Source of the DNA: Sporopachydermia quercuum
Taxonomy: Eukaryota
Direction: 5' to 3'
NCBI GenBank assembly: GCA_001599295.1
Contig: BCGN01000004.1
Span: 1,182,138 to 1,240,655 of the forward strand
DNA: 58,518 nucleotides
Every line of letters begins with the position of its first letter. The first letter of the stretch is position 1. Made by a program: the position numbers and the translations under genes. The notes beneath the pieces are model-generated. The model was not told the origin of the DNA and made no database searches. It worked only from the letters and a program-made list of their open reading frames with translations. Of this stretch, positions 8,947 to 57,803 are shown piece by piece.

Positions 8947-10191
8947 ATGGAGTCGGAACATGAGAAAACACAAAATGCAGGCGAAAGCACTTCTTTAAGC
9001 CCTGAAACAATGAGTGCCATCAGACAAAGAAGAAGAACATCGTCAGTTGGTCCAATCAACCTGGGAGACTCTACTCCCGGGCTTTCAACCATGCATATAT
9101 CAAAGACTCAAACCCAAGCAAGTGAAGCAAGGATCAAAAAACTATCGGATAAATCATCAAGCTCTATGGATTTGGTGAGGAAAATTGCTATTGCTTATAG
9201 AGAATTATCTTTTCGTCAAACGTGGTTGAACCCTTTGATTATTGTAGTTAGCGCTTTTGCTACCTACTATTTGTCTGATAATCAGACAGAGACAAATCCT
9301 TTACACAAATTTCTGTTCTTATCGTACAGAATACCAGGAGAAAATGGAAAGCCTAATATGTATGGAAAAGGCCGTAATGACTTTTGCTTTGTATTCTTCT
9401 ATATGGCTTTCTTCACCTTTTATCGTGAAGTTTGGATGCAAGTGATTTTAAAACCTTTGGCTCAAAGATTAGGACTTCGTAAAGGTAAGATAATGAGATT
9501 CATGGAACAAACTTATTGTATGGTTTATTATGGAATATCTGGGCCTTTTGGATTATACGTCATGTACCATACACCTATGTGGTATTTCAACACAACAGCT
9601 TTCTATGAAGAGTATCCTCATACAACCTTGGATTTTGCTTCCAAGCTTTTCTATTTGCTTCAAGCTTCATTCTGGGCTCAGCAATCTGTCGTCCTTTGTT
9701 TGCAATTGGAAAAACCTAGAAAGGATTTCAAAGAACTTGTCTTCCATCATATTATCACTATGTTATTGATTTGGACATCATATAGATTTCATTTCTCTTG
9801 GATGGGTGTCGCTGTTTACATTACTATGGATATTTCAGATTTCTTCCTTGCTTTATCTAAAACTTTGAATTATATTGATTCTCCTTTTCAAATTCCTGTT
9901 TTTATTTTCTTCATTGTTGTTTGGATCTATCTTCGACATTACCTTAACATCAGAATCTTGATTTCGGTGATTACTGAATTCCTCACTGTCGGTGAAAATG
10001 GTTTGAGTTTTGCTAATGAACAGTTCAAGTGTGGAATAGCACAGTTGATCTGTTTTGCTTTGATCTTTTCATTACAAATGGTTAATTTGTATTGGTTATT
10101 CCTTATTTTTAGAATCCTCTACCGTTTCGTTAAGGGGGGAACAGCTGCTGATGAACGAAGTGATGACGAAGATGGCTCAGACCCCAACTGA
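8947..10191 (+). CDS. LAC1: Ceramide synthase (Lac1/Lag1, TLC domain)
   Basis: Lag1p motif RKDFKELVFHHIITMLLIWTSY...MDISDFFLALSK, multiple TM segments and an acidic C-terminal DERSDDE. Syntenic with YKL008C/YHL003C. Confidence 0.96.
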   Translation: MESEHEKTQNAGESTSLSPETMSAIRQRRRTSSVGPINLGDSTPGLSTMHISKTQTQASEARIKKLSDKSSSSMDLVRKIAIAYRELSFRQTWLNPLIIVVSAFATYYLSDNQTETNPLHKFLFLSYRIPGENGKPNMYGKGRNDFCFVFFYMAFFTFYREVWMQVILKPLAQRLGLRKGKIMRFMEQTYCMVYYGISGPFGLYVMYHTPMWYFNTTAFYEEYPHTTLDFASKLFYLLQASFWAQQSVVLCLQLEKPRKDFKELVFHHIITMLLIWTSYRFHFSWMGVAVYITMDISDFFLALSKTLNYIDSPFQIPVFIFFIVVWIYLRHYLNIRILISVITEFLTVGENGLSFANEQFKCGIAQLICFALIFSLQMVNLYWLFLIFRILYRFVKGGTAADERSDDEDGSDPN

Positions 10192-10747: not shown

Positions 10748-12013
10748 TCAGATATTATCCTTACCGAACTCAAAAGATTCAGAAGCGTCCTTTTGATCAT
10801 CAGAAACTCTGTAGGCTTTGGTAGCTGGACGTGTGGCCAAAGATTCTTGATACTGAGCTAAACCATCTCCGTAGACATCTCTACGGTAAGCATTGTAAGT
10901 TTCTATTCGTTTGTTCTTTCCAACTTGTCCAGCTTTGCTTAACATACCGCAAATTAAATCAGTGCTTCTGATTGAATCATCATTTGCAGGAATTGGGTAA
11001 GTAACCAAAGAAGGCTCAGAGTCAGTATCAATAATACCAATGGTAGGAATGCATACTTGAGCAGCTTCTGCAAGAAGAACCCTGTTTTCAACAGGATTCA
11101 AAACAACGATGAGATCTGGTTTGATTACTGCTTCAGATTCAAAAGGAGTAACTTCTCGCGGAGCAGCTTTATCGCCCATGTCTATATATTGACGAGGGAA
11201 TCCTTTCAAAACAGAAACACCATTAGTCAAAGAGCCAGGCACCCATCTCCTGGAAACGTAAAAACCATTGACACGCTTTGCTGCTTCATAAACACTTCTA
11301 TATTGACCTTCCCTTGTTCCAACGAAGGCAATAACACCACCAGCTTCGGCGACACCTTCTACTACCTTTGCAGCTTTTCTTAAATGAACTAGTGTTTGGT
11401 TTAAATCTATTATGTGAAGATCATTATGTACACCATAGATGTATGGTTGTGTTGAGTCTCTCCATAAGGATTTATGATGACCCAAATGACATCCAGCGGC
11501 AAGCAACATCGACAGAGTCGCTGATGAGGCATTCTTTGGTTTCAAATTGTCTAAATGAGGTCTGTAGATATTTTCAATCACAGATCCATGACTTCCATAT
11601 TGAGTATTAGCAAATTGTCTCCGTAAATACAGTTCTTGTTCTGAATAAGGCTCCTCAGGGTTTGTTAAACGAACGTTAGGGAAATTCTTCAATAAAGGAC
11701 TTGTTGACGTAGACTGGTCTTCTGTGACAACAACTTCATCCATTTTTTCAATATACTTTTCTAAGAGCTTTCTAAGCTCTTGTGACAAAGCTTGAATTTT
11801 TGCATTTTCTGATCCAGACTTGACTAGCTGAACAAGCTCTTCAAAGTTGAAGTTATCGATAGCAGTGTTACTTTCTGGTTCTTCAGCAACTTTCAGCCTG
11901 ATTTCTTCAGCTAGCCGCCGTGCACTGGTGTTTAAACTTCTTGTNCGCACCACAGTACTACCCGTGTATTCCTTTAAGGCACTACGGCCTATGAAACGAA
12001 AGCTTCGTTGCAT
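10748..12013 (-). CDS. MRP4: Mitochondrial small-subunit ribosomal protein uS2m
   Basis: LLAAGCHLGH, HIIDL, RWVPGSLTN, PTIGIIDTD and PIPANDDSIRS motifs, with an Arg-rich presequence. Syntenic with YHL004W. Confidence 0.95.
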   Translation of the reverse strand: MQRSFRFIGRSALKEYTGSTVVXTRSLNTSARRLAEEIRLKVAEEPESNTAIDNFNFEELVQLVKSGSENAKIQALSQELRKLLEKYIEKMDEVVVTEDQSTSTSPLLKNFPNVRLTNPEEPYSEQELYLRRQFANTQYGSHGSVIENIYRPHLDNLKPKNASSATLSMLLAAGCHLGHHKSLWRDSTQPYIYGVHNDLHIIDLNQTLVHLRKAAKVVEGVAEAGGVIAFVGTREGQYRSVYEAAKRVNGFYVSRRWVPGSLTNGVSVLKGFPRQYIDMGDKAAPREVTPFESEAVIKPDLIVVLNPVENRVLLAEAAQVCIPTIGIIDTDSEPSLVTYPIPANDDSIRSTDLICGMLSKAGQVGKNKRIETYNAYRRDVYGDGLAQYQESLATRPATKAYRVSDDQKDASESFEFGKDNI

Positions 12014-12699: not shown

Positions 12700-13377
12700 A
12701 TGTTGTATCTGGCTACATTTGATAGATTGATCAGTGAAACGATCTCTCGGTACATTGAGCTCAAGGCAGCGTTAGACAATAGCAATGTTAATGTTCAAGC
12801 TAAGATTGTAGTTTTTGACAAAAGCTTGCTTCAACCAGCAAGTATCAATGTTAAAGACAAAGACTTATCCACTAGAATTGCTTCATTGGCGATTGATGTC
12901 ATGTATATGCCGAATATGAGTTATTTATTGCAACAATTGAAGACCTGGAATGAAAATGCAGTAAAAAATAGCAATTTTATTTATTTGATCTCAATATGGG
13001 GATTACTTGAATGCTATGAAAGGTTCTATTGTAATAGAATCAAAGGGGAAACATTAAATACACACCCTAGCACACCAATTGGGTCCGAGCTTGATGAATC
13101 TCCTCCCATTAGAGATTCAATTGACGGGAAACAATTCTCCTCTTCTTTTTTAACATTATTAATGATGATTTTGCATCAGTTGGGAAAATATAAAGACTTC
13201 AGATACGATCGCAACATCATTTTTGGGGAGAGAGAATCAATCGATCTTGAGGAAGTAAAATTACCTATACAGCTTTCACCGACTGGTAGAAAAACTCCAT
13301 CCAAAAGGGCATCGGCAGTAGAATGGATAAATTTGAGCCAATTTACTAAGAAATGGCAGGATATAGAGTACCTCTAG
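12700..13377 (+). CDS. SHU1: Probable Shu complex subunit Shu1 (divergent Rad51 paralog)
   Basis: 225-aa ATG ORF divergent from MRP4, as YHL006C is. Hydrophobic patterns IDVMYMPNMSYL, LISIWGLLE, FLTLLMMILHQL and KKWQDI resemble recalled Shu1 blocks. Confidence 0.6.
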   Translation: MLYLATFDRLISETISRYIELKAALDNSNVNVQAKIVVFDKSLLQPASINVKDKDLSTRIASLAIDVMYMPNMSYLLQQLKTWNENAVKNSNFIYLISIWGLLECYERFYCNRIKGETLNTHPSTPIGSELDESPPIRDSIDGKQFSSSFLTLLMMILHQLGKYKDFRYDRNIIFGERESIDLEEVKLPIQLSPTGRKTPSKRASAVEWINLSQFTKKWQDIEYL

Positions 13378-15561: not shown

Positions 15562-18500
15562 ATGGCAGGTGGAGCCTCAAAAAGTCGTTTGGGAAAGCAA
15601 AAGTTTGGAAGCTCCAACTCATTGGTTTCGCCATCCGCATCTAAGTTAAGGAAGATGAAGCAGAACAAGGCAGATAGTTCTCCTTCAAAAGAAAGGTTAG
15701 AAAAGACCTCTCGCGACAAGCATAAAACAAAACATTCCGATATAATAATTGAACCGGAAAGTTCATCTGCTTCATTTGGAACCAACTTTCCCATTACTGC
15801 ACATCCAGATGATATTACCATGACTGACCGTGATTCTGATGGAGAGAACGATGAGTTTATGTACGAAGTTGATGAAGAAGGTAACGATGAAGAACTATCA
15901 CAGCCTATGGATACATTCAACCCATTATCTTCTCCACGACATCGTCGATCAGATGCCTACAGAATTTTGGCTCAACTAGCAGAAGAAGATACGGACTCGG
16001 ACCTCGAATCATCAGGCTCGACAGAACTAGTTCCACATTTGGGTCAACAGGCAACTGATCATTCTATTTACCATGATGACGGCGAGGAAGAAGACGATAA
16101 CAGTGATGACGAGGATTATAATGATGGCTCTGATATGGGAAATGATTCTGAAAATGACTTCGAATCTGATGTGAATGCTGCCAAGGAGTTCATTCGACTG
16201 GCCAGTGGTGGAGTAGATGAAGACGCAGAAGAGGACGAAGGAGACGTCGATAATGAGGAAGAAGAGGACGAAGAAGAAGACGATGAAGAAGAAGATGAGG
16301 AAGATCATGAAAGTGATGCCGAGTTATCGTCACTTCGGTTTGGAAGATTCAGAAATAGTACCCATCAGGGATTATCAGCTCTTCTCAATATGGGTTCTCC
16401 TTCCTCGCGCGATAGTCAAGAATTTGATCCTTTAATGGAACTAGCATCAACGCTTCTAGGTATGTCGAATTCACGCATCGGAAATCTAGTTCAAACAATA
16501 TCTCGTGATTTAGAAGAAGATAATCCATATGGTGTTTTAGAGCCTTTACAGGAGCTNTGTGAGTCGCTATTAATGTTATCAGCAATGGAAATTGAACGCG
16601 GGGTTCCGGCCGGAAAAATCTCACAAGTTCTAGTTGCAATAATGAACCATCCTGTATTAGAAGAAAGTCTAGAAACACAGTTATTAGCAGCAAGAGCTGT
16701 TTTCAATTTGATTGAAGCTAATTATAATTATGGAGCTGATATTGTTGCCGCTGGTGGTTTGCAAGCTCTAAAATCTAAACTATCCAATATTGCTTATATC
16801 GATTTAGCCGAGCAAGCTTTACAGACGTTTGAAACTCTTTCCAGAGTGGTAGGACGCGATGTCCTATACTCTGGTGCTGTTGACGCTGCTTTAGAGTATG
16901 TTGATTTTTTCACAGTTCATAATCAACGAAAGGCATTGGCAATTGCTGCTAATTGTTGTCAATCAGGTAGAAGTATATCTCTAGGTGTTGTGAAGGATAT
17001 CTTCCCTATATTAGAGACAATTGCTACCAATAATAGTGATAGTATTGTTGTTGAAAATTCTTGGCTTGCCATCACCGGAATTATATCAGGGTTAACTAAA
17101 CCTGAGGATATTGAAAAAATGGTCAGTGAAAAGCTTTTAAAAGATATGCTTCAAGTTATTTCCCAAGGTAAAGATTTATCTATTGTTTTACGCATTGTTG
17201 GTAATTTATCAAGAAGTGTTGTAATCAGTAGAAAGTTAGCTAATAGAATAATGGTGCTGGATAACTTAAGTGAAACAATCAAAAGTTGTTTTAAAGGATT
17301 TTCAAAATATTCTAGCTCCCAAAACAATGATACTACTATTGGACCAAATCACATCACCATTAATGAAGAATCACCAGAAAGTTCGGAACCTGAGCATGAA
17401 TCTGTTTCCATGGCTGAAATTATTTCTGTTCCTAAAGAGCTTGTTAGAACTGTGATTGAGTTTGTACGTAACCTTCTTCCTACGACTAGTATATCAGAAA
17501 AGTATACTACTGACAAGAAGATAACAGGTTCTGGAAATAGTAGCGATAAGGAAGAATTGTCAGAAGAAAGTATTAAAGTGCTATCTGAACACTGCAAAGA
17601 TCTTCTTCCTTTATTACTGGATGTTTATCCTGATACTGTTGTTCCTGAGATCAAGAAAGCTTGTATAGAAGGTATTTCAAGAATGGTTTCATTTCTTACT
17701 TTAGAGAGCATCAAAAAGATTCCTAGAGGTCTAGAGCTTTGCGGCTTAACATTTAGTATATTATCACATTATAAGTACACCTTTGGAGAAGATGAAGGAA
17801 TCAAAGGTATCCCTACTAAAACAGGAAGAGACATTTTAACTTGGACCCTATTAATAGTTCTAGTTCTGCTTGAAAAATTCCCAGACTATTATGTATTTGA
17901 ACTAGAACAAGAAGGCATCTTGAAAGAGATTGAAAAGATCAAAGAGTTTGTCAAGATTGAAGAAAAATCCGAGTCTGATGAAGAAGAAGAAGGTGAAAAT
18001 GAAGGAGACTCAGATGGTACCGAACTGAGAAATAGAGTTATTGGTAGAATTGTTGGTAGTAGGTATACTATTACCAGAAGATCGTTTATTGGGGAAACCG
18101 TTGAGGAGTTTAAGAAAAAGCTGAACAAAATCAGTAAAGACATACTGTTAGTTGCAGCAAGTACATTAGAATCATTTGGTGGAATTAGAGATACTGTTCC
18201 GAAACAAAGAATTCAATCTATTGTTTCTAATATATCCGAAATTAGGAACAATAAAACGCATAATGTTTCCAATTGGGTATCTATTTTCCAACAGCTTCAG
18301 GCCCTTGTTTCTGATCAGGAGCATAAAGCTTCCAGCATAGAATTATTGAACTCTGGACTAATAGGAGTTCTATGGAGATTGTTAAGAGATGATGCTACTG
18401 CTTCGTACGCATTTGGTCAAGTATTTATAAACGTTGGTTCATTAACTTCGCTTATAGCGCTGCTTGATAAACTGCAAGAAGCACTAGCTAGAGTTGAGAC

Positions 18501-20817
18501 TTTTGAAATAGCCACTTCGGGCTACTCGGACATTATCTTTTATAGTAGATTGAACGGACCAGCTAAGACATCCGTGATGGCTAAGCAGATTCGAATCAAG
18601 CTAGTGCCAGAAGAAGAAAGCACAAAGTTGATTGGAGACAATAAATCAAACGATGAAGGTAGCTCTGAAGCCAGTGCAGAAGGACAATCAGACACTGACA
18701 GTGAATACAAAAACAAAACTGTCATCGTTGCCGTTCATGCTATCGCTACTTTCCGCACGATCAATAGGTTCCTTACTGGTTGGCAGTCACTAGGNCTTGG
18801 TAGAAGGATACCAGATCAGGATAATGAAAATCAGTTCCATATGGAGTTTTATCAAAATGGAAACCTCATACCTAATGATACTACAATATATGGAGCCGTT
18901 CGAAATCAAATGACGGATTCTGAAGGTAATGTTGATGCATTCCACTTATGGAATGAATCTCATGTAATCAATTATAAGAAAGTGTCAGGACCAATTCCGA
19001 AAGAAACTCCTTTGGGAGCTTCTCGAGGTCAACTTTACCCTGCTTATTTCAGCTCTGACGAAGAAGATCTACTGGAATTGCTAGGTATAACTGAATCCAT
19101 TTTAGAAGTTTTACAACTGCTTAAACAACTATTTACATTATTCTCCAGATTCAAACATATGATGACTCCTAAAGCTTCTCCTGCTGCAATTGCTAAAATA
19201 ACGGAACATTTTTTGAATCCAAAGATCAGTGTAAAGTTGTCCAGACAGTTAGAAGAGATTTTAGTTGTTGCCAGTGGCACTTTACCTTCTTGGAGTGTAA
19301 ATCTAACAAGAATGTACTCTTTTCTTCTACCGTTCGAAAGAAGACTAGAATTCTTGAAATTTACATCGTTCGGTTATTCAAGATTGATCCAAGCAGCATC
19401 AGAAGACGATGAACCTTCATTAAGTCGTGATTCTACTTCAAGCTCGTCGGCACGAGACGCTATAAGAAGACATGATTTAGGAAGACTTATTCGATATAAA
19501 GCTAGAGTGTCACGTGAAAATATACTAGGATGTGCTATGAAGATTCTACTATTATATGGATCAAGTCCAAATGTTCTAGAGATTGAGTATTTTGACGAAG
19601 AAGGATCTGGACTAGGTCCTACTCTTGAATTCTATTCGAAAGTGTCAAAAGAACTATGTAGGAAGCAGTTGAAGTTATGGAGAGAGAACAACTCAGATGA
19701 CTTGGGATTTACAGAAAGTGAGAGCGGAGATGATGATGATGACCACAAATCTAAGGCAAATTACACAGGAATTGATTCAAATGAGTTTGTTTATAGCAAA
19801 AATGGGCTTTTCCCTGCTCCATTGGATAAAGCTCAATTGTCGAGCAACAATGGTCAGAAGCTTCTGAAGCTTTTCTCAGTTCTCGGGAAATTTGTAGCTA
19901 GATCATTACTTGATAGCAGATTGATTGATTTGCCATTCAATGAAGTATTCTTTCATTTGGCTCATAGAATGGAAGAACGGGATGGATCAGATTTAGTCTT
20001 TGATGATGATGATGAAGATGCAGACATATTGGATCAATTGGAATTAGTTTCCAGAGTTGATATTAAACTTGGTAGATCATTACGTATGCTCTATAGGTAT
20101 GTTGAAGCTGACAAGCTCAAGAAGCAGAAATCAAATGGTATCCCTGTTGAACACGATGAAAATGATATATCTGGAAAGCTGGCTATTGATGGAGTGGAAG
20201 TTGAAGATTTAGCATTGGATTTTACACTTCCAGGTTACCCTGAGATTGAACTGAAGGAAAATGGTGAAATGATCAATGTTACTTTGGCCAATATCGAAGA
20301 GTTTATTAGGCTTGTAATCGACCTTACGATAGGATCGGGGGTCCAAGCACAATTGAAAGCCTTTAGAGAAGGATTTTCAGAAGTATTCCCGTACTCTGCA
20401 ATGCTTGTTTTTTTCCCAGAGGAAATGGTCAAATTGTTTGGCAATGCTGATGAAGATTGGAGCTTACCCACCTTAGCTAATTCTCTAAAAGCTGATCATG
20501 GATATATGATGTCTAGTCCTGCAATTACTGACTTATTGAGTATTATGAGCGAATTTTCAATTGAAGAGAGACGATTGTTCTTACAATTCGTTAGTGGAAG
20601 TCCTCGATTACCTGTTGGGGGATTTAAAGCATTAAAGCCAACATTCACTATTGTTTGCAAACAGTGCGAGGCACCTTTGAAATCCAATGACTATTTACCT
20701 AGTGTGATGACCTGTGCAAATTATTTGAAGCTTCCTAGTTATAGCTCTAGAGAAGTTATGAAGGCCAAATTAATCCAAGCAATGAACGAAGGTTCTGATT
20801 CTTTCTTGCTTTCATGA
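15562..20817 (+). CDS. UFD4: HECT E3 ubiquitin ligase Ufd4 (TRIP12 family)
   Basis: ARM region (AYIDLAEQALQ, YVDFFTVHNQRKALAIAANCC) and HECT domain (EEGSGLGPTLEFY, YLPSVMTCANYLKLP, SFLLS). First ATG at 15562. Long acidic N-terminus. Confidence 0.97.
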   Translation: MAGGASKSRLGKQKFGSSNSLVSPSASKLRKMKQNKADSSPSKERLEKTSRDKHKTKHSDIIIEPESSSASFGTNFPITAHPDDITMTDRDSDGENDEFMYEVDEEGNDEELSQPMDTFNPLSSPRHRRSDAYRILAQLAEEDTDSDLESSGSTELVPHLGQQATDHSIYHDDGEEEDDNSDDEDYNDGSDMGNDSENDFESDVNAAKEFIRLASGGVDEDAEEDEGDVDNEEEEDEEEDDEEEDEEDHESDAELSSLRFGRFRNSTHQGLSALLNMGSPSSRDSQEFDPLMELASTLLGMSNSRIGNLVQTISRDLEEDNPYGVLEPLQEXCESLLMLSAMEIERGVPAGKISQVLVAIMNHPVLEESLETQLLAARAVFNLIEANYNYGADIVAAGGLQALKSKLSNIAYIDLAEQALQTFETLSRVVGRDVLYSGAVDAALEYVDFFTVHNQRKALAIAANCCQSGRSISLGVVKDIFPILETIATNNSDSIVVENSWLAITGIISGLTKPEDIEKMVSEKLLKDMLQVISQGKDLSIVLRIVGNLSRSVVISRKLANRIMVLDNLSETIKSCFKGFSKYSSSQNNDTTIGPNHITINEESPESSEPEHESVSMAEIISVPKELVRTVIEFVRNLLPTTSISEKYTTDKKITGSGNSSDKEELSEESIKVLSEHCKDLLPLLLDVYPDTVVPEIKKACIEGISRMVSFLTLESIKKIPRGLELCGLTFSILSHYKYTFGEDEGIKGIPTKTGRDILTWTLLIVLVLLEKFPDYYVFELEQEGILKEIEKIKEFVKIEEKSESDEEEEGENEGDSDGTELRNRVIGRIVGSRYTITRRSFIGETVEEFKKKLNKISKDILLVAASTLESFGGIRDTVPKQRIQSIVSNISEIRNNKTHNVSNWVSIFQQLQALVSDQEHKASSIELLNSGLIGVLWRLLRDDATASYAFGQVFINVGSLTSLIALLDKLQEALARVETFEIATSGYSDIIFYSRLNGPAKTSVMAKQIRIKLVPEEESTKLIGDNKSNDEGSSEASAEGQSDTDSEYKNKTVIVAVHAIATFRTINRFLTGWQSLXLGRRIPDQDNENQFHMEFYQNGNLIPNDTTIYGAVRNQMTDSEGNVDAFHLWNESHVINYKKVSGPIPKETPLGASRGQLYPAYFSSDEEDLLELLGITESILEVLQLLKQLFTLFSRFKHMMTPKASPAAIAKITEHFLNPKISVKLSRQLEEILVVASGTLPSWSVNLTRMYSFLLPFERRLEFLKFTSFGYSRLIQAASEDDEPSLSRDSTSSSSARDAIRRHDLGRLIRYKARVSRENILGCAMKILLLYGSSPNVLEIEYFDEEGSGLGPTLEFYSKVSKELCRKQLKLWRENNSDDLGFTESESGDDDDDHKSKANYTGIDSNEFVYSKNGLFPAPLDKAQLSSNNGQKLLKLFSVLGKFVARSLLDSRLIDLPFNEVFFHLAHRMEERDGSDLVFDDDDEDADILDQLELVSRVDIKLGRSLRMLYRYVEADKLKKQKSNGIPVEHDENDISGKLAIDGVEVEDLALDFTLPGYPEIELKENGEMINVTLANIEEFIRLVIDLTIGSGVQAQLKAFREGFSEVFPYSAMLVFFPEEMVKLFGNADEDWSLPTLANSLKADHGYMMSSPAITDLLSIMSEFSIEERRLFLQFVSGSPRLPVGGFKALKPTFTIVCKQCEAPLKSNDYLPSVMTCANYLKLPSYSSREVMKAKLIQAMNEGSDSFLLS

Positions 20818-21101: not shown

Positions 21102-21298
21102 TGTTACACAGAGANTTTGGCACAAGTTTCTCCAAAAAAATCCAAAGTCAAGCCTTTCCTACCTAACGACGAACTGTTTACTAAATTGACTCTTTATTCG
21201 GTCTATGAATGGAAAGTAGATGAAGCGATACTCTTCAGCATTCATAGACATTCAAAACAATCAGAAGGTTTTAGTGAAAAAGCGGTCGGTTCTATGAA

Positions 21299-21763
21299 AT
21301 GAAAACTCCTTCTATAAGTGAAGATGATCTGCGGAGATTCAACTACCAACATATAGGTGAAGGCAAGGAACAACTTGCGAAATGGAGTTTAGTTTTACTT
21401 AGTGCAGTAGATCTCAGTCCTAATGAGACCAGTCATAATGAGGAAAGTCCCAGCTTAACTAAAGAGGAAATTAGTTTCTTTCAACGACAAGAAGTTCACA
21501 AGCAAGCATTTGCTAAAGAACAAGCTGAATATAGGAAAGTTACTGAGCTGTATGAGAAAGAAGTTGAACATGAAGTATCACAGATTGAATCAAAAGCTGG
21601 GAAGGCAATACCTGTCTTATTAGAAGTCTACGAAAAGGTATTCAAGAATCCTGAATTAATCGAAAAGGCAAAGAATTTTGATCGAGGAATCGATCTTTAT
21701 TTTGAGCATCTTGCATCTAAAGGTAGAAGCCAGTATTATCCTGCTGCTCCTATTAGACTTTGA
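21299..21763 (+). CDS. Gemin8-like protein (putative SMN complex subunit; fungal DUF3807-like N-terminal half)
   Basis: 154 aa. LTKEEISFFQRQEVHKQ and the terminal DLYFEHLASKGRSQYYPAAPIRL parallel the recalled Gemin8 blocks ITEELRQYFAETERHRE and [23 protein letters not shown]. Confidence 0.7.
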   Translation: MKTPSISEDDLRRFNYQHIGEGKEQLAKWSLVLLSAVDLSPNETSHNEESPSLTKEEISFFQRQEVHKQAFAKEQAEYRKVTELYEKEVEHEVSQIESKAGKAIPVLLEVYEKVFKNPELIEKAKNFDRGIDLYFEHLASKGRSQYYPAAPIRL

Positions 21764-22971
21764 TTGGGCTTTATATATAACTACCAGCGTCTAAAGAATT
21801 ACATGGAGTGTTCATTAGCGAAAAGAGACAACAATTATATCCACTAGATATGGTATACGATGTGACCTGCTATGAAACCAGCACAGCATTTGGTATACCA
21901 CAGAGCTCTCTAGGGATCTAGTGGCTTCCGCCGTGAGCCTGGATCAGTACTTTCAATGTGGACTGTTAGTTTACTGGACAGAACCAAAAGGGCCAATTGA
22001 CATCACTGAATAGTAGTTGTTGAGATATGATTATTCAGTCATCTTCATGCTTCCCATTTACTCCCCTTAATCAACTGCTTGATCGTTTTTGAGTCAACCA
22101 CTATCGAGTAGTATTAATATGCAACTATATGCATAGCCATGCAAAAGTTAAACGTTAATAAATCCGACACAAGTTTTGGTAACCGGTCCGTTTTCTCTAA
22201 CTGAGGGTTAGCGGATATGCCACAGACTAAATTAAANAATTATGTGATCTAATAATATCGGGCTTTTCTATCTATCTGTAAGTTAGCCGTTCATTTATTT
22301 ACCGAACGGGTTTACCAGTGATTGACTTCAAATTCAACTGATTGCTATATAATAATTGTAAATTAGCAGTAATTTCATTTCATTTGCAGGTTTAATGTAT
22401 TCAGTGATTGTTTTGTATCTTTTACTCCCCTTCCTCAACGTGACTAGCTATATACTTCCAACCAACCATCGCCCTCCCGTTTATATAATCACCGAATATC
22501 GCTGGTTTTATTAACCCAGCCACAACATTTTGGATTACATAATCCAAATGGCAAGTGTTTATCTGTAGCTGGGGAAACGCACAACTTTGGAAATGTCAAG
22601 GAGGCCAACCCGTGTTAAGAGACAAAAGACAAGACTATCGATAAAGATATAGCAGGCTGCTTGAGATTATAACTGACATGCTAGAACTAGTAATGAGATA
22701 AAAATATTCAATTCAGACGCTCTATTTACTTAATTTCACAGGAAACCCTTAAACTTTCAGCAATACGGATCATAAGGTGACCGGTAGTTGCAATTCCAAC
22801 ATTGTGAACGAAGAAAAATCGCGAACTGCATCGAAAAGCGTTACACTTTGTGGATGTGGTAATTGACACTACAATTCATACAATTCTTTCTTCCGATAAG
22901 CTTTTCTGAATCTTTTCTGAATCGTATGATACAGTTTGATAGTGAGAATAATTAAAGGAAATTGTGCTAAA

Positions 22972-25755
22972 ATGACAAATGAAGAGATTGAAACAGAGAA
23001 AGAAGCATCTGATTTACCATCCGGTTTACCTAGGTTTCCCGCGTCCTTGAACGTTAACGCTTTGGTAACAGAGAATTCTTCCTCGTCTCTTATAACAGAA
23101 TTGAGTAAGCATATATACTTGTTGGGATAAATTCGTTGCATGACGTGTCCATTGCACTGAGTCGCGAAGCGCTTTTATTAAACCTATTTTTACTAACTAC
23201 ATCCATCTGTTCCATTAGATCAAACATATGAACAACTTCAAATCAAATCTGATGAATTATCAACGACAAATTCCAATTCCATAGCATCTACGACAAATTC
23301 GTTAGATGATCCGATAAAATTTCGTCAGGTATCATCTACTGATTCCATCTCTGGGTCTGAATCCTTATCGCTTTATTCGGACGTTGATACTGAAGCAAAG
23401 ATAGAAACCTCTGCAAAGCCAGAAGCAGAAGTAGCTACTGGCTTTGTTACAGTTTCTACTGAAAGTGAATCTGCTGTTGAATCTGAGGGTGAACCTGGTA
23501 TTATCGAAGATACCTCAAAACTTAGAGAAAGCGAATTACCTGAAGAAGAGGAGGACGAAAACACGCTTTTGGATCAATACACTTGCACATCTGCTCAAAG
23601 TGGGGCAGATTCTACCAGTACAAGCGGTACATCACCCAACCAATCAAGATTAACTGAATCACCCGTTGTGCCTCGGCTTAGAGAAAGTCCAATTGTGAGT
23701 AAGAACTCAACGGGTTCAGGAGGATCTCTTGGAGCAGGTATCCAGTTGTCATCTACATCACCGGTATCAACCTCTCGACGGCAAATATCTGATTCCTCAA
23801 CCGTTTCCAACGGTTCCCAGAGCCAAGGGCCTCTAACAAGACGGAAAAGCAGCAGAAGTACAGTGAAAGGCGCTTTTGCCAAGGTAGTGAAAGGAATGAG
23901 AGGAAATAGTTCAAGTTCTGGTAGTGGCTCTGGTTTCAATTCTCCCGGGAAATCAAACGGTAGCAATTTGAAGATATCAAGTCCTTATAACTCTCATGTT
24001 GTGTACCATGTAGCTTATGATAAAGAGACTGGTGGTTATACCGGATTGCCTCCGGAGTGGGTGAAACTGTTGCAGGAGTCTGGAGTTTCTTCTACAGATC
24101 AATCGCGAAATCCTGAAGCGGCACGTAAAGTGTATGAATTCATGCAAGCAGAACAAGGGAGAAATCGCGACGAAGACATTTGGGAGAAACTGAAAGAAGT
24201 GCATCCAAATAGGCAACCGTCAGATTTCATACAGAGCTCTTCTGGTATTGATGATGACACATCGGGATCATCCGCTGGTTCGGCTTCTGATCCGTCACTA
24301 GGGAGAAACTCGGATCAATATAAGACACCAAAAGATCAAACAATAGAATCATTCCCTATAATGTCACCAGAGACTCCTCAAAAGACACCGAGTTCAGCAA
24401 CAATGCCTCGTATTCGTCCTGGGAATAAACTGGAAAGGAAGTTCATTCCTACAAGGCCTGCGCCTAAACCCCCAGGGAAATCAAAGAGTTCAACTCCTAT
24501 GCTAAAACAAGCCCCTACGACTCCTGGTGCTGTTGGACTATCNTCACCTGTAGGCCATGGAAGCTCCGATACACCAAATACCAATACGAAATCATCACCA
24601 ACACCTGCTTCTCCTTCAAGGCTACCTCCACGATCACCTGTTCCTAAAGCACCTGTGAGAACATCTCCAAAAATACTTTTCGATCAAGAAAACCAATACC
24701 AACTCAAGAATCCTAAGGCTTTTATCAATAACAATCATCATCGTGATGAAGATAAACCACCACCGGTGCCTTCAAAATCACCTACCACTCGACCTTCTGA
24801 TGCCCCACAGCAGCTCCGACTGAAAGCTGCAAGAAGAAAAGAAGAAATGCGAAAACGGGACACCCAAGTATATGCCAGACTAATGATGATCTGTACACCC
24901 GGAGATCCTACTAAACTGTATAAAAATCTGCAATTGGTAGGACAAGGTGCATCTGGTGGTGTTTATATAGCAAACACGATCGATAGTAATAATGCAGTTG
25001 CAATCAAACAGATGAGTTTGGAAACACAGCCTAAAAAGGAGTTGATTATTAATGAGATTCTAGTAATGAAGGAATCCCATCACCCAAATATTGTGAATTT
25101 CATTGATTCATACTTCCATAAAGGTGATTTATGGGTAGTGATGGAATACATGGAAGGTGGTAGTCTTACAGATGTTGTTACCCATAATGTGATGACAGAA
25201 GGTCAAATAGGTGCTGTTTGCAGAGAAACATTAAACGGTTTACAGTTTTTACACTCTAAAGGTGTGATTCATAGAGATATTAAGTCAGATAATGTGTTAT
25301 TGTCTATGCAAGGTGATATCAAACTAACAGATTTTGGTTTCTGTGCTAGGATCAATGAATCAAACTCGAAACGAACAACTATAGTTGGTACACCTTATTG
25401 GATGGCACCAGAAGTAGTCAAAAAGGAAGAATATGGACCTAAAGTCGATATTTGGTCATTAGGAATTATGACCATTGAAATGATTGAAGGAGAACCACCA
25501 TATTTGAATGAGACACCAGCTAGAGCATTATTTTTGATCTCTGATAATGGGACACCCAAGTTGAAGGAACCAGAATTACTTAGTGAAGTGTTCAAGGACT
25601 TCTTAGGTTGGGCATTAGAAGTTGACACGAATAAAAGAGCAACTGCAGCAGAACTACTTAACCATCCATTTATTGCAACAGCAGATAAATGTTCAGCTCT
25701 GGCGCCATTAGTCGAATTCGCACGCTTAAAGAGAAATAGACATGGAGCTGAGTGA
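22972..25755 (+). CDS. STE20: PAK kinase Ste20, 2 exons: 22972-23104, 23219-25755
   Basis: [13 protein letters not shown]-terminal block, CRIB, kinase domain ([28 protein letters not shown]) and C-terminal G-beta-binding SALAPLV. Intron 23105-23218 has GTAAGC, TACTAAC and TAG. Confidence 0.96.
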
Positions 25756-26282: not shown

Positions 26283-27953
26283 TTAATCCTCTAAAATGAC
26301 AAATTTCGTTTGAACAAAAAACAGTCGAACATCACTTTTACCAACGTTTTGAAACATGTAGTAATTCCCCATTGGTACTTCAAACGAACTCCCCGTCCGT
26401 GCTATGAAACTAGTTTCACTTAAATTTACTTTAACATTACCACTAACAACGTAAAATATGAAGTAAGTATCGTTAGAAGCTTTTACAGGCTTTGAGCCTC
26501 CAATTGGCATAAATATCTCTCCGGATGCACAGAATTCTTTATTACGATCATAAAGAATAGCCAATTTGAAATCAGATCCTTTCACATCCTTAAACTGCAC
26601 ATATTCATCTTTCCATGCTACAGTTCTTGGCTTCTTTTCTTCAAAGTCTGGATAATCAAACACATCTGCAGATAAGGAGCCTTGTTGTTCCCATTCCAAC
26701 TCCTCGGGTTCAAATAAACTGGGATCCAATTCATCTTCTTTCTTCTTAGATCGTTTGGAAATATGCCCATTATCAACGTCTTCATCTTCGCTGTTTAATG
26801 GTTCTGAATTATCAAGAACTGTCATCTTCTTCCGTTTACTTGTCTTGCTAGTAGGAGTCCTTGAACGAGATTTTTGGTTAGCGCTGTGGGTTGAATTTGT
26901 TCTCCGTTTAGTTGTAGCGGATTTTGGAGTATCCACTTTCACGATAGTTTTTATCTGAGGCAAGGCAACAGTGTTTTCTCCTGAAGCATGATCCAAATTA
27001 TATATAATACGTTCGTTTCTCCAGAATGCTAATGGTGCAACTCGTGTCCGCTTGGATCTTCTCACGTGAGTTGAAGATTCTTCACTGTCTGTATCGTTGA
27101 GAGTACCTTTCAGTAATGGATCAATGTTCTGCAATTGTTGGGAGTGTTTACTGATCTGCCTATTTGTTTTCTTTCTTGGTGATTGTTTGTTTTGAGACGT
27201 CTTTTTAGGAGATTCTTTCTTTGACGATATGTGATATGAACCTTTCCGAGGTTTTCGTGCTGGTTCTTCATTTTCACCTTCCCCTTCCTCTTCTTCTTCT
27301 TCTTCCGATTCACCTACCTCTGAATCATCAGGGTGTAGACGAGGATTGCGCGACATACGTGGTGAAGACTTGGTAAATGTTCGTCTTTCCAGCACAGACT
27401 TTTTTCGTAGCGATGAACGCTGCTTAGATCCCTTTGAAAATGATTGCGAAGGCTCAGCTTCAGACTCGGAATCTGAAAACGAATGTGCATCTTGTGGCGC
27501 AGATAGATTATCTTCTTCTGCAGTTTCAAAATCACTATTTTCATTACCATGACTCTCTTGATCTTCGTCCTCCTGGTCTTCCATTTCAAAATCGCGCATA
27601 CTGTTACGATCCCTAGTAAAGGTGTCTTCGTTCTCTATTGGTTCATCGTCTGATATATCAAAAATGCTTTTAGAATTTGGCCTTGAGTTTCTAGACTTAC
27701 CGCTACCACCGAAATTCAATCTTCTGGCTACAGAATCTGGTGTTTTGGTTTTCCCGGTTGATGATGAAGTTGATGATAAACGAGTGGATTTTCTTGTGGA
27801 GCTTCCTCTTTTCCTTGAAGTCCCTTTTGAAGAGCTGGCTGGTGAATCAAAGTAAGCATCCATTGATTCCATACCATATTCATCTCTCTTGCCTGTATCT
27901 TGTACACGAAGGCCTGTTTTACGGGCCTTTACCCCAATGTTTACGACATCCAT
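26283..27953 (-). CDS. MIF2: Inner kinetochore protein Mif2/CENP-C
   Basis: N-terminal MDVVNIGVKARKTG...DEYGMESMDAYF, CENP-C motif RRSKRTRVAPLAFWRNERIIY and C-terminal cupin (FEVPMGNYYMFQN). Confidence 0.96.
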   Translation of the reverse strand: MDVVNIGVKARKTGLRVQDTGKRDEYGMESMDAYFDSPASSSKGTSRKRGSSTRKSTRLSSTSSSTGKTKTPDSVARRLNFGGSGKSRNSRPNSKSIFDISDDEPIENEDTFTRDRNSMRDFEMEDQEDEDQESHGNENSDFETAEEDNLSAPQDAHSFSDSESEAEPSQSFSKGSKQRSSLRKKSVLERRTFTKSSPRMSRNPRLHPDDSEVGESEEEEEEEGEGENEEPARKPRKGSYHISSKKESPKKTSQNKQSPRKKTNRQISKHSQQLQNIDPLLKGTLNDTDSEESSTHVRRSKRTRVAPLAFWRNERIIYNLDHASGENTVALPQIKTIVKVDTPKSATTKRRTNSTHSANQKSRSRTPTSKTSKRKKMTVLDNSEPLNSEDEDVDNGHISKRSKKKEDELDPSLFEPEELEWEQQGSLSADVFDYPDFEEKKPRTVAWKDEYVQFKDVKGSDFKLAILYDRNKEFCASGEIFMPIGGSKPVKASNDTYFIFYVVSGNVKVNLSETSFIARTGSSFEVPMGNYYMFQNVGKSDVRLFFVQTKFVILED

Positions 27954-28512: not shown

Positions 28513-30036
28513 TCAAAAATCCAACTTCCCTGTAACAAATAAGGATCCACCGTTGTTAGTTTCATAGTATTTGTACCTGTTTGATTTCAAGTAGGATATA
28601 ACCATTGGTTTGATTTTGGCTTTCTTGTTCTGGCTGTGAATTCCAACTCCCGTAATTAGTTGAAGCGATTGTATAGGTGTTTTCTCATTGAAAACAATCA
28701 TTTGCTTTTGAGACTCCCACCAGCGGGGAACAACTCTCTGAATGATGATTTTAGCATCTTGAATGATCATTCTATGCATATCCAGTGTCTTGTTAGCTAA
28801 TGCATCCGACACAATGGTATCAATTTGCCGAGAAATGTAAATTTCGTTAACATTTTGAACTGAAGAAGAAGATACCCTTTTCAGGCTNTTCAGGACATTT
28901 CTATATTTACCAGGAACTTTTGTTTGATCAACATCTCGGGTATAATTATAAAGCTTTCTTGCCATAACTCCTGCTTGATATTTTTCTCGGGGTGTCAACT
29001 TTGAATCATTAAGTGAAAAGGGACTATAAGAAGATACAGATCTTTCTGATTTTGATGTTGAAGCTGTTTTCCCCTTTTTCACTGGTTTAAAAGGTTCTTG
29101 ATGTGCTGTGATATTATCTCCTTGGATGAAAGGCCTCCAAAATGTTTCTCCGATACATTTCTCTTCTATGATAATTTGTAGTAATGCATATAAGGATTCT
29201 GGATCAAAGAAACTGAAAACATAAGCTTTAACCAGAAATATGTAGGATATCTTTTGAAGATTATGATCATTTTCACAAAGAACTTCAAGAGAGATATCAT
29301 TTACTGATGTTTTGACCTTGTGTTTATAAAAAGCCATAACTTGTTTCTCGTAATTGTCATAGCTTTTTTGACTAGAGAATCTTTCCTTGCAGTCTTCCCA
29401 ATATTTGACACATCGTTGTGGAAATAAGATGGCATAGGTTATTATCCGAATAACAGTCAAGGCAGGACTTCTTTTTGACTCAAAATAATACGATAAAATT
29501 ATATCAACACTAAGCCCAGTGCACATGCTAACTCTTTCGCAATCAGCTCGTAATTTAACATCTTGTTCTTCGTCTCCAACAATCGTTTCCAAATGTTCAT
29601 AACTCAACAACTCATCTGTTATAACATTGAGGTCACAGTTGTGTTCTTTAATAACTCTGAGCAATGTAATCTCAGGAATCATTGAGAATGTTTCTTTTAG
29701 CATCTGAAACAAGTCTTGTTCAGTTGCATTTGATGGTTGTAAAGAATCAGAAATGGTATCTGAAGATCCAGAGAAATCCTTATCTGATAGGTGGCCTTCT
29801 GATTCATCTTGTTCATCCTTCGCTTCATTTTCGTCATGAACTTCCAAATCAAGCATTCCAACTAATCGTTTAACAATCAGTTCCATTTCCTCGCCAGAAT
29901 CAAAATCATCCCAAATGCCAATCTCTGACAGTAGTTTCAAAAGAAACTCAGTATGCTGTTCCCCAACTTCTTCTACAATTGAATGTATCAAGTCTCTTGA
30001 TACCTGAGGATACTTCTCTGGCAATGTCTTCTCCAT
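28513..30036 (-). CDS. CUE2: CUE- and SMR-domain endonuclease Cue2 (no-go decay)
   Basis: CUE-like repeats (LKETFSMIP...DLNVITDELLS) and C-terminal SMR (LDMH...LITGVGIHS...KIKPMVISYL). Directly upstream of MIF2, as YKL090W is of YKL089W. Confidence 0.85.
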   Translation of the reverse strand: MEKTLPEKYPQVSRDLIHSIVEEVGEQHTEFLLKLLSEIGIWDDFDSGEEMELIVKRLVGMLDLEVHDENEAKDEQDESEGHLSDKDFSGSSDTISDSLQPSNATEQDLFQMLKETFSMIPEITLLRVIKEHNCDLNVITDELLSYEHLETIVGDEEQDVKLRADCERVSMCTGLSVDIILSYYFESKRSPALTVIRIITYAILFPQRCVKYWEDCKERFSSQKSYDNYEKQVMAFYKHKVKTSVNDISLEVLCENDHNLQKISYIFLVKAYVFSFFDPESLYALLQIIIEEKCIGETFWRPFIQGDNITAHQEPFKPVKKGKTASTSKSERSVSSYSPFSLNDSKLTPREKYQAGVMARKLYNYTRDVDQTKVPGKYRNVLXSLKRVSSSSVQNVNEIYISRQIDTIVSDALANKTLDMHRMIIQDAKIIIQRVVPRWWESQKQMIVFNEKTPIQSLQLITGVGIHSQNKKAKIKPMVISYLKSNRYKYYETNNGGSLFVTGKLDF

Positions 30037-57718: not shown

Positions 57719-57803
57719 AGGTCTTGCCCGGATTCGAACCGGGGTTAGCGGAACATTCTAAAGACATCAGAATCCGCAGTGATAACCACTACACTACAAA
57801 ACC
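57719..57803 (-). tRNA. tRNA-Gln(CUG) with 13-nt intron (57766-57754)
   Basis: GGTTTTGTAGTGTAGTGGTTATCACTGCGGATTCTGA[TGTCTTTAGAATG]TTCCGCTAACCCCGGTTCGAATCCGGGCAAGACCT. 72-nt mature cloverleaf, B box GGTTCGAATCC, T7 Pol III terminator at 57709-57703. Confidence 0.96.

What the first reader, a model, noticed from the sequence alone, without database searches (positions are those of the whole stretch)
21299..21763. Probable Gemin8 (SMN complex subunit) in a budding yeast
Seen: a 154-aa orphan between UFD4 and STE20 with an N-terminal ISEDDLRRFNYQH helix, a central LTKEEISFFQRQEVHKQ helix and a C-terminus DLYFEHLASKGRSQYYPAAPIRL-stop. Known (recalled): metazoan Gemin8 has a central ITEELRQYFAETERHRE helix and ends [23 protein letters not shown]. 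S. pombe has an SMN/Gemin2/6/7/8 complex, whereas S. cerevisiae keeps only Brr1 (Gemin2). Inference: both blocks match in order and the second is flush with the C-terminus, so this lineage may retain a multi-subunit SMN snRNP-assembly system generally taken as lost in budding yeasts. That fits the intron-rich genes around it.
Basis: partly seen in the sequence, partly recalled or inferred. Interest (0 to 1): 0.82.

Follow-up and report, generated by a model that had tools for sequence, protein, structure and literature searches.

The report
Possible Gemin8 gene in budding yeast
A small, real-looking yeast gene encodes a helical protein whose tail resembles that of Gemin8, a part of the machine that builds splicing particles and is thought missing from baker's yeast, but no standard homology search confirms the link and the partner genes could not be looked for.

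Summary
The ORF is real and as described: 21299-21763 (+), 154 aa, between a UFD4-like HECT ligase and a Ste20-type kinase. It looks coding. Its codon score falls within the range of 12 Pfam-supported window genes, and 3 of 2000 spacer shuffles give an ORF this long.

Every homology route I could run was blank. Pfam gave no Gemin8 or DUF3807 hit for the whole protein or four segments. PDB sequence search, two word-indexed searches, an exhaustive phmmer over 1.84 billion representatives, the ESM Atlas, Foldseek and VIA-align also gave nothing specific.

The motif resemblance is still far beyond chance. Placed end to end with the quoted human C-terminus, the last 23 residues score 33 (exact P 1.6e-6). 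None of 8203 real 23-mers exceeds 17. The predicted layout matches published S. pombe Gemin8.

A rival is synteny, from recalled gene order: this slot holds SHU1 in Saccharomyces. But Shu1 has an alpha/beta fold and this protein is predicted all-helical.

No genome is held, so SMN, Gemin6 and Gemin7 could not be sought.

Verdict: plausible divergent Gemin8, about 50%, unproven.

The parts
21299..21763 (+). Single-exon gene, 154 codons plus TGA; 17.9 kDa, pI 5.6, 22 Glu and 15 Lys, only one Met (the start)
   Evidence: Coding-like codon usage and length beyond chance. No 5' splice-site consensus between the UFD4 stop and the ATG. In-frame stop at 21275-21277, read from the sequence.
21320..21403 (+). 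Predicted N-terminal helix, residues 8-35; inferred counterpart of the SMN YG-domain-binding N-terminus of Gemin8
   Evidence: AF2 single-sequence model, block pLDDT 55-68. The role is inferred from the SpG8 deltaN58 result in PMC8287938. Binding was not tested.
21404..21460 (+). Predicted disordered linker, residues 36-54, rich in Ser, Glu and Asn
   Evidence: Non-helical, with pLDDT below 50 at residues 42-50. SpG8 residues 35-58 are described as flexible in the supplement of PMC8287938.
21455..21505 (+). Central motif block, residues 53-69 (LTKEEISFFQRQEVHKQ), at the start of the long helix (residues 55-115)
   Evidence: Best placement of the quoted 17-residue human motif scores 28. 34 of 3000 shuffles reach that score, and 0 of 8293 real 17-mers from 15 window proteins do.
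21461..21721 (+). Long helix (residues 55-115), a two-residue break, then a second helix (118-141); the end of the first helix with the second forms a helix-turn-helix, the inferred Gemin7-binding module
   Evidence: AF2 model, block pLDDT 70-86 over residues 51-130. The human Gemin8 190-230 helix-turn-helix binds the N-terminal helix of Gemin7 (PMC8287938).
21692..21760 (+). C-terminal block, residues 132-154 (DLYFEHLASKGRSQYYPAAPIRL), ending at the stop codon; the last 9 residues carry most of the similarity
   Evidence: End-to-end ungapped BLOSUM62 score 33 with 5 of 23 identities. Exact P is 1.6e-6 with window composition and 3.0e-6 with the ORF's own composition. 0 of 8203 real 23-mers reach 33 (maximum 17). 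The last 9 residues alone give P 1.06e-5 and the preceding 14 give P 0.011.
21772..21779 (+). TATATATA, starting 9 nt after the stop codon; resembles the yeast 3'-end-formation efficiency element (recalled knowledge)
   Evidence: Position and sequence. The function is inferred, not tested.

Best explanation
ORF 21299-21763 is a real, single-exon gene for a small acidic helical protein. It is most likely a highly diverged orthologue of Gemin8, the bridging subunit of the SMN snRNP-assembly complex. Proposed mechanism (all binding steps are inferred): the N-terminal helix (residues 8-35) docks on the oligomerised C-terminal YG domain of an SMN orthologue. A flexible linker (36-54) follows. The C-terminal helix-turn-helix (about residues 100-141) plus the conserved tail (YYPAAPIRL) grips the N-terminal helix of Gemin7 in a Gemin6/Gemin7 Sm-like dimer. 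The protein would thereby tether Gemin6/7 to SMN-Gemin2(Brr1) during Sm-ring loading onto snRNAs. Shown here: the ORF exists, looks coding, has the predicted helical layout, and carries the two motif blocks. Inferred: homology to Gemin8, every interaction, and the existence of the partner genes in this genome.
For: (1) The C-terminal 23 residues, placed end to end with the human Gemin8 C-terminus as quoted in the finding, score 33. Exact P is 1.6e-6 for one fixed placement, and 0 of 8203 real 23-mers from 15 window proteins exceed 17. (2) The central motif lies upstream in the right order: score 28, reached by 34 of 3000 shuffles and 0 of 8293 real 17-mers. (3) Gemin8 orthologues are said to be conserved at their C-termini (PMC6385987, passage). 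The C-terminal helix-turn-helix is the Gemin7-binding module (PMC8287938). (4) With the end-to-end register, the human interface residues named pair as follows with residues read: F223 with F135, V219 with I131, M215 with F127, A218 with G130, and the salt-bridge residue E216 with D128. I212 pairs with A124 and Y205 with N117, which are not conserved. This register assumes a human length of 242 aa, which is recalled. (5) Size and layout match SpG8: 154 against 166 aa, a disordered stretch at 36-54 against the flexible 35-58, and a C-terminal module. (6) The authors of PMC8287938 themselves call the S. pombe-human conservation 'weak', with 21% identity in the C-terminal module. Failure of single-sequence searches is therefore expected for a true orthologue. 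(7) The lineage has introns in genes that I recall as intronless in S. cerevisiae (HSE1-like, Ste20-like).
Against: Pfam gave no match to GEMIN8 or DUF3807 at E<=10 for the whole protein or for 4 segments. HMMER's filters drop most hits above about 0.1, so this excludes only a clear match. There was no PDB sequence hit, although 7BBL (human Gemin8 190-230) is deposited. There was no homolog of any kind: 0 of 1.84 billion representatives at E<=0.001, 0 of 10 and 0 of 6 word-sharing candidates, and nothing in the Atlas. Consequently there is no alignment, no profile-profile test, and no evidence that the tail is conserved. The human motifs are recalled, not tool-derived. Partner genes could not be looked for. 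The gene order matches the SHU1 slot of Saccharomyces (recalled). Earlier claims of Gemin6/7/8 orthologues based on weak similarity in Drosophila were overturned (PMC6385987).
Confidence: 0.5

Rival explanations
1. ORF154 is a real but lineage-restricted helical or coiled-coil protein with some other role, and its resemblance to Gemin8 is a chance match picked out after the fact.
For: No database, profile or structure search links it to any family. The long helix matches hundreds of unrelated coiled coils equally well: 629 of 48161 chains at Z>=5, with the top tied at Z 6.4. Most of the score comes from only 9 residues. The other orphan I searched from this window, the 225-aa ORF, also found nothing, so fast-evolving proteins are common in this lineage.
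Against: The combined improbability is roughly 1.6e-6 times 0.011, with correct order and an exact end-to-end placement. That survives a correction of 10^4 to 10^5 comparisons. The published SpG8 architecture also fits.
Confidence: 0.33
2. ORF154 is the positional orthologue of SHU1, the Rad51-paralogue subunit of the Shu complex that promotes error-free recombination. In S. cerevisiae (recalled) SHU1 is a 150-aa gene directly upstream of STE20 on the same strand.
For: The window order is HSE1-like, LAG1-like, MRP4-like, 225-aa orphan, UFD4-like, ORF154, Ste20-like. With strands, this reproduces the interleaved YHL002W-YHL007C / YKL008C-YKL010C block as I recall it. ORF154 has the size, position and strand of SHU1.
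Against: Shu1 is a compact alpha/beta Rad51-core fold: a four-stranded parallel sheet flanked by eight helices (PMC5727457). ORF154 is predicted as three long helices, including one of 61 residues at block pLDDT 70-86, with no strand. S. cerevisiae Shu1 is in the PDB (5XYN), yet it appears among neither the 4 phmmer hits at E<=10 nor the 28 Foldseek rows. A second orphan lies in the same MRP4-STE20 interval on the same strand (225 aa, 12700-13377). By eye it has alternating strand-like and helix-like hydrophobic segments and could equally fill the slot. The gene order is recalled, not from a tool.
Confidence: 0.07
3. The ORF is a chance open frame in a spacer and is not expressed.
For: No RNA data are available and no homolog exists. 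An out-of-frame ATG at 21294 (ATG AAA TGA) overlaps the start codon.
Against: 3 of 2000 shuffles reach this length. The codon score is at the upper end of confirmed genes, with both off-frames and all three antisense frames negative. A TATATATA element lies 9 nt past the stop.
Confidence: 0.03

Closest known systems
Gemin8 (human GEMIN8; S. pombe SpG8/Gem8), the bridging subunit of the SMN complex (PMC8287938)
   Same: It is small (154 aa against 166 aa for SpG8). The predicted layout is an N-terminal helix, a flexible stretch near residues 35-58, and a C-terminal helix-turn-helix. The C-terminal block lies exactly at the end of the protein, and a central motif lies in the same order.
   Different: No profile, sequence or structure search reaches significance. 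Two of six human interface positions are not conserved in the end-to-end register. No partner genes have been shown. It comes from a budding yeast, where the held literature documents only Brr1/Gemin2 and Lot5, and only for S. cerevisiae (PMC11965559 and PMC13249430, passages).
S. cerevisiae Shu1 (YHL006C), Shu complex, PDB 5XYN (PMC5727457)
   Same: Chromosomal slot, strand and length: about 150 aa, immediately upstream of STE20 (recalled gene order set against the window map).
   Different: Shu1 has a Rad51-core alpha/beta fold, whereas ORF154 is predicted as long helices only. No sequence or fold match was found.
Drosophila Valette/CG2371, once proposed as Gemin8 and later reassigned to CommD10 (PMC6385987)
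   Same: It is also a Gemin8 candidate proposed from weak similarity in a lineage thought to lack Gemin6-8.
   Different: Valette had a clear better match to another conserved family. ORF154 has no competing family at all. Its similarity also sits in the C-terminal region, the part that paper says is conserved among Gemin8 orthologues.

Membership tests
Gemin8 (Pfam GEMIN8 / fungal DUF3807; accession numbers as recalled: PF15348, PF12720) | Significant match to the family profile | tested here: not met
   hmmscan of the whole protein at E<=10 listed 3 sub-threshold families (APS_kinase 0.081, DUF2433 0.11, Phage_DsbA 0.12) and neither Gemin8 nor DUF3807. Of 4 segments, 2 gave nothing and 2 gave only Phage_DsbA and DUF2433. 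HMMER's filters hide most hits above E of about 0.1, so a weak match is not excluded.
Gemin8 | Conserved C-terminal block at the very end of the protein (PMC6385987: 'conserved at their C-termini') | tested here: met
End-to-end score 33, exact P 1.6e-6, and 0 of 8203 real 23-mers reach 33. Only F223 within that block is cross-checked against residue numbers in PMC8287938.
Gemin8 | C-terminal helix-turn-helix that binds the N-terminal helix of Gemin7 | tested here: inconclusive
   AF2 predicts helices at residues 55-115 and 118-141 with a two-residue break. In the end-to-end register, F135, I131, F127, G130 and D128 pair with F223, V219, M215, A218 and E216, while A124 and N117 pair with I212 and Y205. 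No Gemin7 sequence was available, so binding could not be modelled.
Gemin8 | N-terminal region that binds the SMN YG domain | not testable with these tools
   An N-terminal helix at residues 8-35 is predicted. No SMN sequence from this organism is available.
Gemin8 | Co-occurrence with SMN, Gemin6 and Gemin7 in the same genome | not testable with these tools
   No whole genome is held for this window. None of the 19 window ORFs scanned shows an SMN or Gemin domain.
Gemin8 | Size and domain layout like the characterised fungal member SpG8 (166 aa; flexible 35-58; C-terminal module 115-166) | tested here: met
   154 aa, disordered 36-54, C-terminal helices ending at 141 plus a 13-residue tail, compared. 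This feature is weakly discriminating.
Shu1 (Shu complex Rad51 paralogue) | Rad51-core alpha/beta fold: four-stranded parallel sheet flanked by eight helices | tested here: not met
   The AF2 model has no strand and three long helices, with mean pLDDT 68 from a single sequence, against the description in PMC5727457. The moderate model confidence limits this test.
Shu1 | Detectable similarity to S. cerevisiae Shu1 (PDB 5XYN) | tested here: not met
   It is not among the 4 phmmer hits at E<=10 or the 28 Foldseek rows at E<=10.
Shu1 | Position directly upstream of STE20 on the same strand | tested here: inconclusive
   The window map fits, but the S. cerevisiae gene order is recalled. A second orphan at 12700-13377 (+) could equally fill the slot.

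The most novel reading that the evidence does not exclude
This budding-yeast lineage still runs a multi-subunit SMN complex (SMN, Gemin2/Brr1, Gemin6, Gemin7, Gemin8), with ORF154 as the bridging subunit. If so, the reduction to Brr1 alone seen in S. cerevisiae happened inside the Saccharomycotina, after this lineage branched off. It could then be dated against intron loss by comparing yeast genomes.
Probability: 0.4. Interest if true: 0.65.

Novelty: new member of a known kind. Interest (0 to 1): 0.5.

Why it matters
The papers I read treat S. cerevisiae as having only Brr1 (plus Lot5) and use it to argue how snRNP-assembly chaperones evolved (PMC11965559 and PMC13249430, passages). My three searches combining Gemin/SMN terms with Saccharomycotina or fungi returned 0 papers. 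A Gemin8 gene in a budding yeast that shares gene order with Saccharomyces would show that the SMN complex was lost stepwise within budding yeasts and was not absent from the start. It would also give a tractable set of species in which to ask what made the complex dispensable. If the resemblance is spurious, this is only one more fast-evolving orphan.

Tried and rejected
Homolog retrieval failed by every route.
- The search for homologous proteins, whole protein: 10 candidates, none at E<=0.01.
- The search for homologous proteins, residues 52-154: 6 candidates, none at E<=10.
- Exhaustive phmmer over 1,835,955,588 representatives: 0 at E<=0.001.
- ESM Atlas, whole protein and residues 52-154: no usable hit.
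- The search for related loci with ORF154 in genome contigs: 55 pattern matches, 0 confirmed. In viral contigs: 1 pattern match, 0 confirmed.

I used the UFD4 C-terminus as bait in metagenome contigs. It gave 3 loci at 47% identity from a more distant yeast. Downstream of UFD4 there are ORFs that I judged by eye, from their translations, to be CAP1-, SFT1-, OYE- and HSE1-like, and nothing like ORF154. So no orthologue was obtained.

Structure searches were uninformative. Foldseek against the PDB gave 28 rows at E<=10, the best at E 2.5. VIA-align wide gave only generic coiled coils, with the top tied at Z 6.4 and 0 of 48161 chains at Z>=8. Neither 7BBL nor 5XYN was listed, which says little for a model made of long helices.

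No listed holder is on record as RNA, so expression could not be examined. Contigs of 3 runs are identical to the window, so there are no polymorphisms for a selection test.

The 225-aa orphan was examined as an alternative SHU1 candidate. Its homolog search gave 268 candidates, none at E<=0.01. The PDB search gave 1 hit at E 1.6. Its AF2 model has pLDDT 34.5 and is unusable. That question stays open.

Our earlier findings held nothing relevant, whether searched by place, words or sequence. The alignment in Supplementary Figure S1 of PMC8287938 is an image, and only its legend could be read. Kroiss et al. 2008 (PMC2481332) is not held; it surveyed SMN-complex evolution and may bear on which fungi keep which subunits. 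Complex prediction was not used because no partner sequence was available. I considered a PTS1 or other C-terminal sorting signal for '-IRL' and rejected it from recalled consensus (isoleucine at position -3 does not fit).

Full report
**What is there.** It runs from ATG at 21299 to TGA at 21761-21763 on the + strand and encodes 154 codons, and the three quoted peptide stretches sit at residues 6-18, 53-69 and 132-154. Upstream lies a 1751-aa protein with HECT and TRIP12-type TPR domains (UFD4-like). Downstream lies a protein with a p21-binding domain and a kinase domain (Ste20/PAK-like). The protein is acidic (pI 5.6, 22 Glu and 15 Lys) and has no methionine other than the start.

**Is it a gene?** Three lines say yes.
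- Length: only 3 of 2000 shuffles of the 3078-nt UFD4-kinase spacer yield an ATG-ORF of 154 aa or more. The median longest is 70 and the 99th percentile is 126.
- Codon usage: scored with a table trained on 12 Pfam-supported genes of the window, the ORF gets 0.336 log2 units per codon in frame. The two off-frames get -0.34 and -0.88, and all three antisense frames are negative. The 12 training genes, scored leave-one-out, range from 0.08 to 0.39.
- Gene ends: a TATATATA element begins 9 nt after the stop. It resembles the yeast 3'-end efficiency element, which is recalled knowledge.

The stretch is identical in contigs of 3 runs from 2 studies, which may be the source strain. It is therefore not an assembly error, but there is no variation to test selection. 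There is no 5' splice-site consensus between the UFD4 stop and the ATG, and an in-frame stop sits at 21275. The gene therefore reads as a single exon. One oddity is an out-of-frame ATG at 21294 (ATG AAA TGA) that overlaps the start codon. No RNA run was listed.

**Homology searches.** All were negative.
- Pfam at E<=10 lists only three sub-threshold, unrelated families for the whole protein. For four segments it lists only two of the same ones. Neither GEMIN8 nor DUF3807 appears.
- phmmer against the PDB gives four hits (E 0.12-3.5) for the whole protein and three (E 0.5-1.5) for the last 54 residues, all unrelated. Yet 7BBL (human Gemin8 190-230) and 5XYN (the Shu complex) are both deposited.
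- The word-indexed search found 10 candidates, and 6 for residues 52-154, with none passing.
- The exhaustive phmmer over 1.84 billion representatives found 0 at E<=0.001.
- The ESM Atlas gave no usable hit. Scans of prokaryotic and viral contigs gave nothing.

Two caveats limit what these blanks mean. First, HMMER's filters hide hits weaker than E of about 0.1. Second, the other orphan I searched from this window, the 225-aa ORF, also finds nothing, so the libraries appear to sample this yeast lineage poorly.

**Structure.** A single-sequence AlphaFold2 model (mean pLDDT 68) predicts a helix at residues 8-35, a disordered stretch at 36-54, a 61-residue helix at 55-115, a second helix at 118-141, and an unstructured 13-residue tail. 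Foldseek gave 28 rows with a best E of 2.5. VIA-align over 48161 chains gave its top matches tied at Z 6.4, all coiled coils. Both return only generic long-helix matches and are uninformative.

**How good is the Gemin8 resemblance?** I scored the ORF against the two motifs exactly as quoted in the finding.
- The last 23 residues, placed end to end with the quoted human C-terminus and without gaps, score 33 in BLOSUM62 with 5 of 23 identities.
- The exact probability of 33 or more for one fixed placement is 1.6e-6 with window composition and 3.0e-6 with the ORF's own composition.
- None of 8203 real 23-mers from 15 window proteins exceeds 17. The 15 real C-termini score from -44 to -7.
- Most of the signal is in the last nine residues (P 1.06e-5). 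The preceding 14 add P 0.011.
- The central motif's best placement is at residues 53-69, upstream as in the human protein. It scores 28, reached by 34 of 3000 shuffles and by 0 of 8293 real 17-mers.

Taken together, in the right order and with an exact terminal register, this is hard to explain by chance even after allowing 10^4 to 10^5 implicit comparisons.

One cross-check is available. PMC8287938 names the human interface residues Y205, I212, M215, A218, V219 and F223, plus E216. The quoted block has Phe at the position that equals 223 if the protein has 242 residues, a length I recall. In that register F223, V219, M215, A218 and E216 face F135, I131, F127, G130 and D128 of the ORF. I212 and Y205 face A124 and N117, which are not conserved.

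**Fit to the published family description.** PMC8287938 (sections 21, 22, 23, 25 and 29 read; supplement legends searched) reports the following for S. pombe Gemin8. It is 166 aa long. Its first 58 residues are needed to bind the SMN YG domain. Residues 35-58 are flexible. Residues 115-166 bind Gemin7 through a helix-turn-helix. ORF154 has the same order of elements at nearly the same positions. The authors call the yeast-human conservation 'weak', at 21% identity in the C-terminal module. PMC6385987 (passages) states that Gemin8 orthologues are conserved at their C-termini. It also documents that three earlier 'Gemin6/7/8' candidates in Drosophila, proposed from weak similarity, belonged to other families. 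That is a warning. Unlike those candidates, however, ORF154 has no competing family.

**The positional rival.** The window map is:
- HSE1-like, 5747-7237 (-)
- LAG1-like, 8947-10191 (+)
- MRP4-like, 10748-12013 (-)
- 225-aa orphan, 12700-13377 (+)
- UFD4-like, 15562-20817 (+)
- ORF154, 21299-21763 (+)
- Ste20-like kinase, ORF 23896-25755 (+)
- MIF2-like, 26283-27953 (-)

From my recollection of the S. cerevisiae map, this is the interleaved YHL002W-YHL007C / YKL008C-YKL010C block, in which the 150-aa SHU1 lies directly upstream of STE20 on the same strand. ORF154 fits that slot. Against this, Shu1 is a compact Rad51-core alpha/beta domain with a four-stranded sheet and eight helices (PMC5727457, passages). 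That does not fit a protein predicted to contain a 61-residue helix and no strand. No sequence or fold match to 5XYN appeared. The 225-aa orphan lies in the same interval on the same strand and, by eye, shows strand-like and helix-like hydrophobic alternation. It could be the true SHU1 counterpart. Its fold could not be predicted (pLDDT 34.5), so this stays open.

**What could not be done.** No genome is held, so SMN, Gemin6, Gemin7 and Brr1 could not be sought and no complex could be modelled. No orthologue of ORF154 was obtained, so there is no alignment, no profile-profile comparison, and no evidence that the tail is conserved. The only related yeast locus found (UFD4 at 47% identity) has different genes downstream of UFD4.

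**Literature.** Searches for Gemin8 with Saccharomycotina returned 0 papers. SMN with Gemin2 and Saccharomycotina returned 0. Gemin6, Gemin7 and Gemin8 with fungi and orthologs returned 0. The papers read (PMC11965559 and PMC13249430, passages only) describe only S. cerevisiae among budding yeasts, with Brr1 and Lot5 as its sole factors.

**Verdict.** I put about 50% on a diverged Gemin8 orthologue, about a third on an unrelated lineage-specific helical protein, under 10% on a SHU1 orthologue, and a few percent on a non-gene. If it is Gemin8, it is a new member of a known family in a lineage where the complex is assumed to be reduced, which is of moderate interest. The decisive computations are listed separately and are simple for anyone with the genome and the yeast assemblies.

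Noticed in passing
window 12700-13377 (+): A 225-aa orphan ORF lies between the MRP4-like and UFD4-like genes, on the same strand as the kinase gene. It has no Pfam, PDB or library homolog and a positive codon score (0.124). By eye it shows alternating strand-like and helix-like hydrophobic segments. It may be the true counterpart of SHU1 in this block. AF2 could not fold it (pLDDT 34.5).
   Followed up: partly
window 22972-25755 (+): The Ste20-like kinase gene has a 5' intron. Exon 1 is 22972-23104, the intron is 23105-23218 (114 nt, GTAAGC...TACTAAC...TAG), and exon 2 is 23219-25755. The joined reading frame is open for 889 aa, so the 619-aa ORF understates the protein.
   Followed up: yes
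window 7285-7770 (-): The HSE1-like gene appears to have two 5' introns: 7348 to 7285 (64 nt, GTATGT...TACTAAC...TAG) and about 7770 to 7437. An 88-nt middle exon (7436-7349), by my own reading of its sequence, encodes the start of the VHS domain. This explains why the ORF's VHS match begins at profile position 65. The first exon was not located.
   Followed up: partly
window 5747-25755: Six genes in a row keep the order and strands of what I recall as the pre-duplication Saccharomycetaceae block (HSE1, LAG1/LAC1, MRP4, UFD4, Ste20). A distant yeast contig, L002, keeps UFD4, CAP1-, SFT1- and HSE1-like genes together in a different order; those L002 names are my reading of the translations, not Pfam hits. 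The neighbourhood seems old within budding yeasts.
   Followed up: partly
window 21294-21302 (+): A two-codon out-of-frame upstream ORF (ATG AAA TGA) overlaps the ORF154 start codon. It could dampen or regulate translation if the transcript starts further upstream.
   Followed up: no
window 28513-30036 (-) and 35912-37123 (+): Two more long ORFs (507 and 403 aa) have positive codon scores (0.218 and 0.209) but no Pfam family at E<=0.001.
   Followed up: no
window 57719-57803 (-): This is the only Rfam hit in the window: a tRNA gene at 53.7 bits. ARAGORN reads a four-base anticodon loop entry, most likely because of a tRNA intron.
   Followed up: no
window, whole: 27 single N characters are scattered through a 35.7% GC sequence, some inside genes (X in the UFD4-like and kinase translations). 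This suggests ambiguous or heterozygous base calls in the assembly.
   Followed up: no
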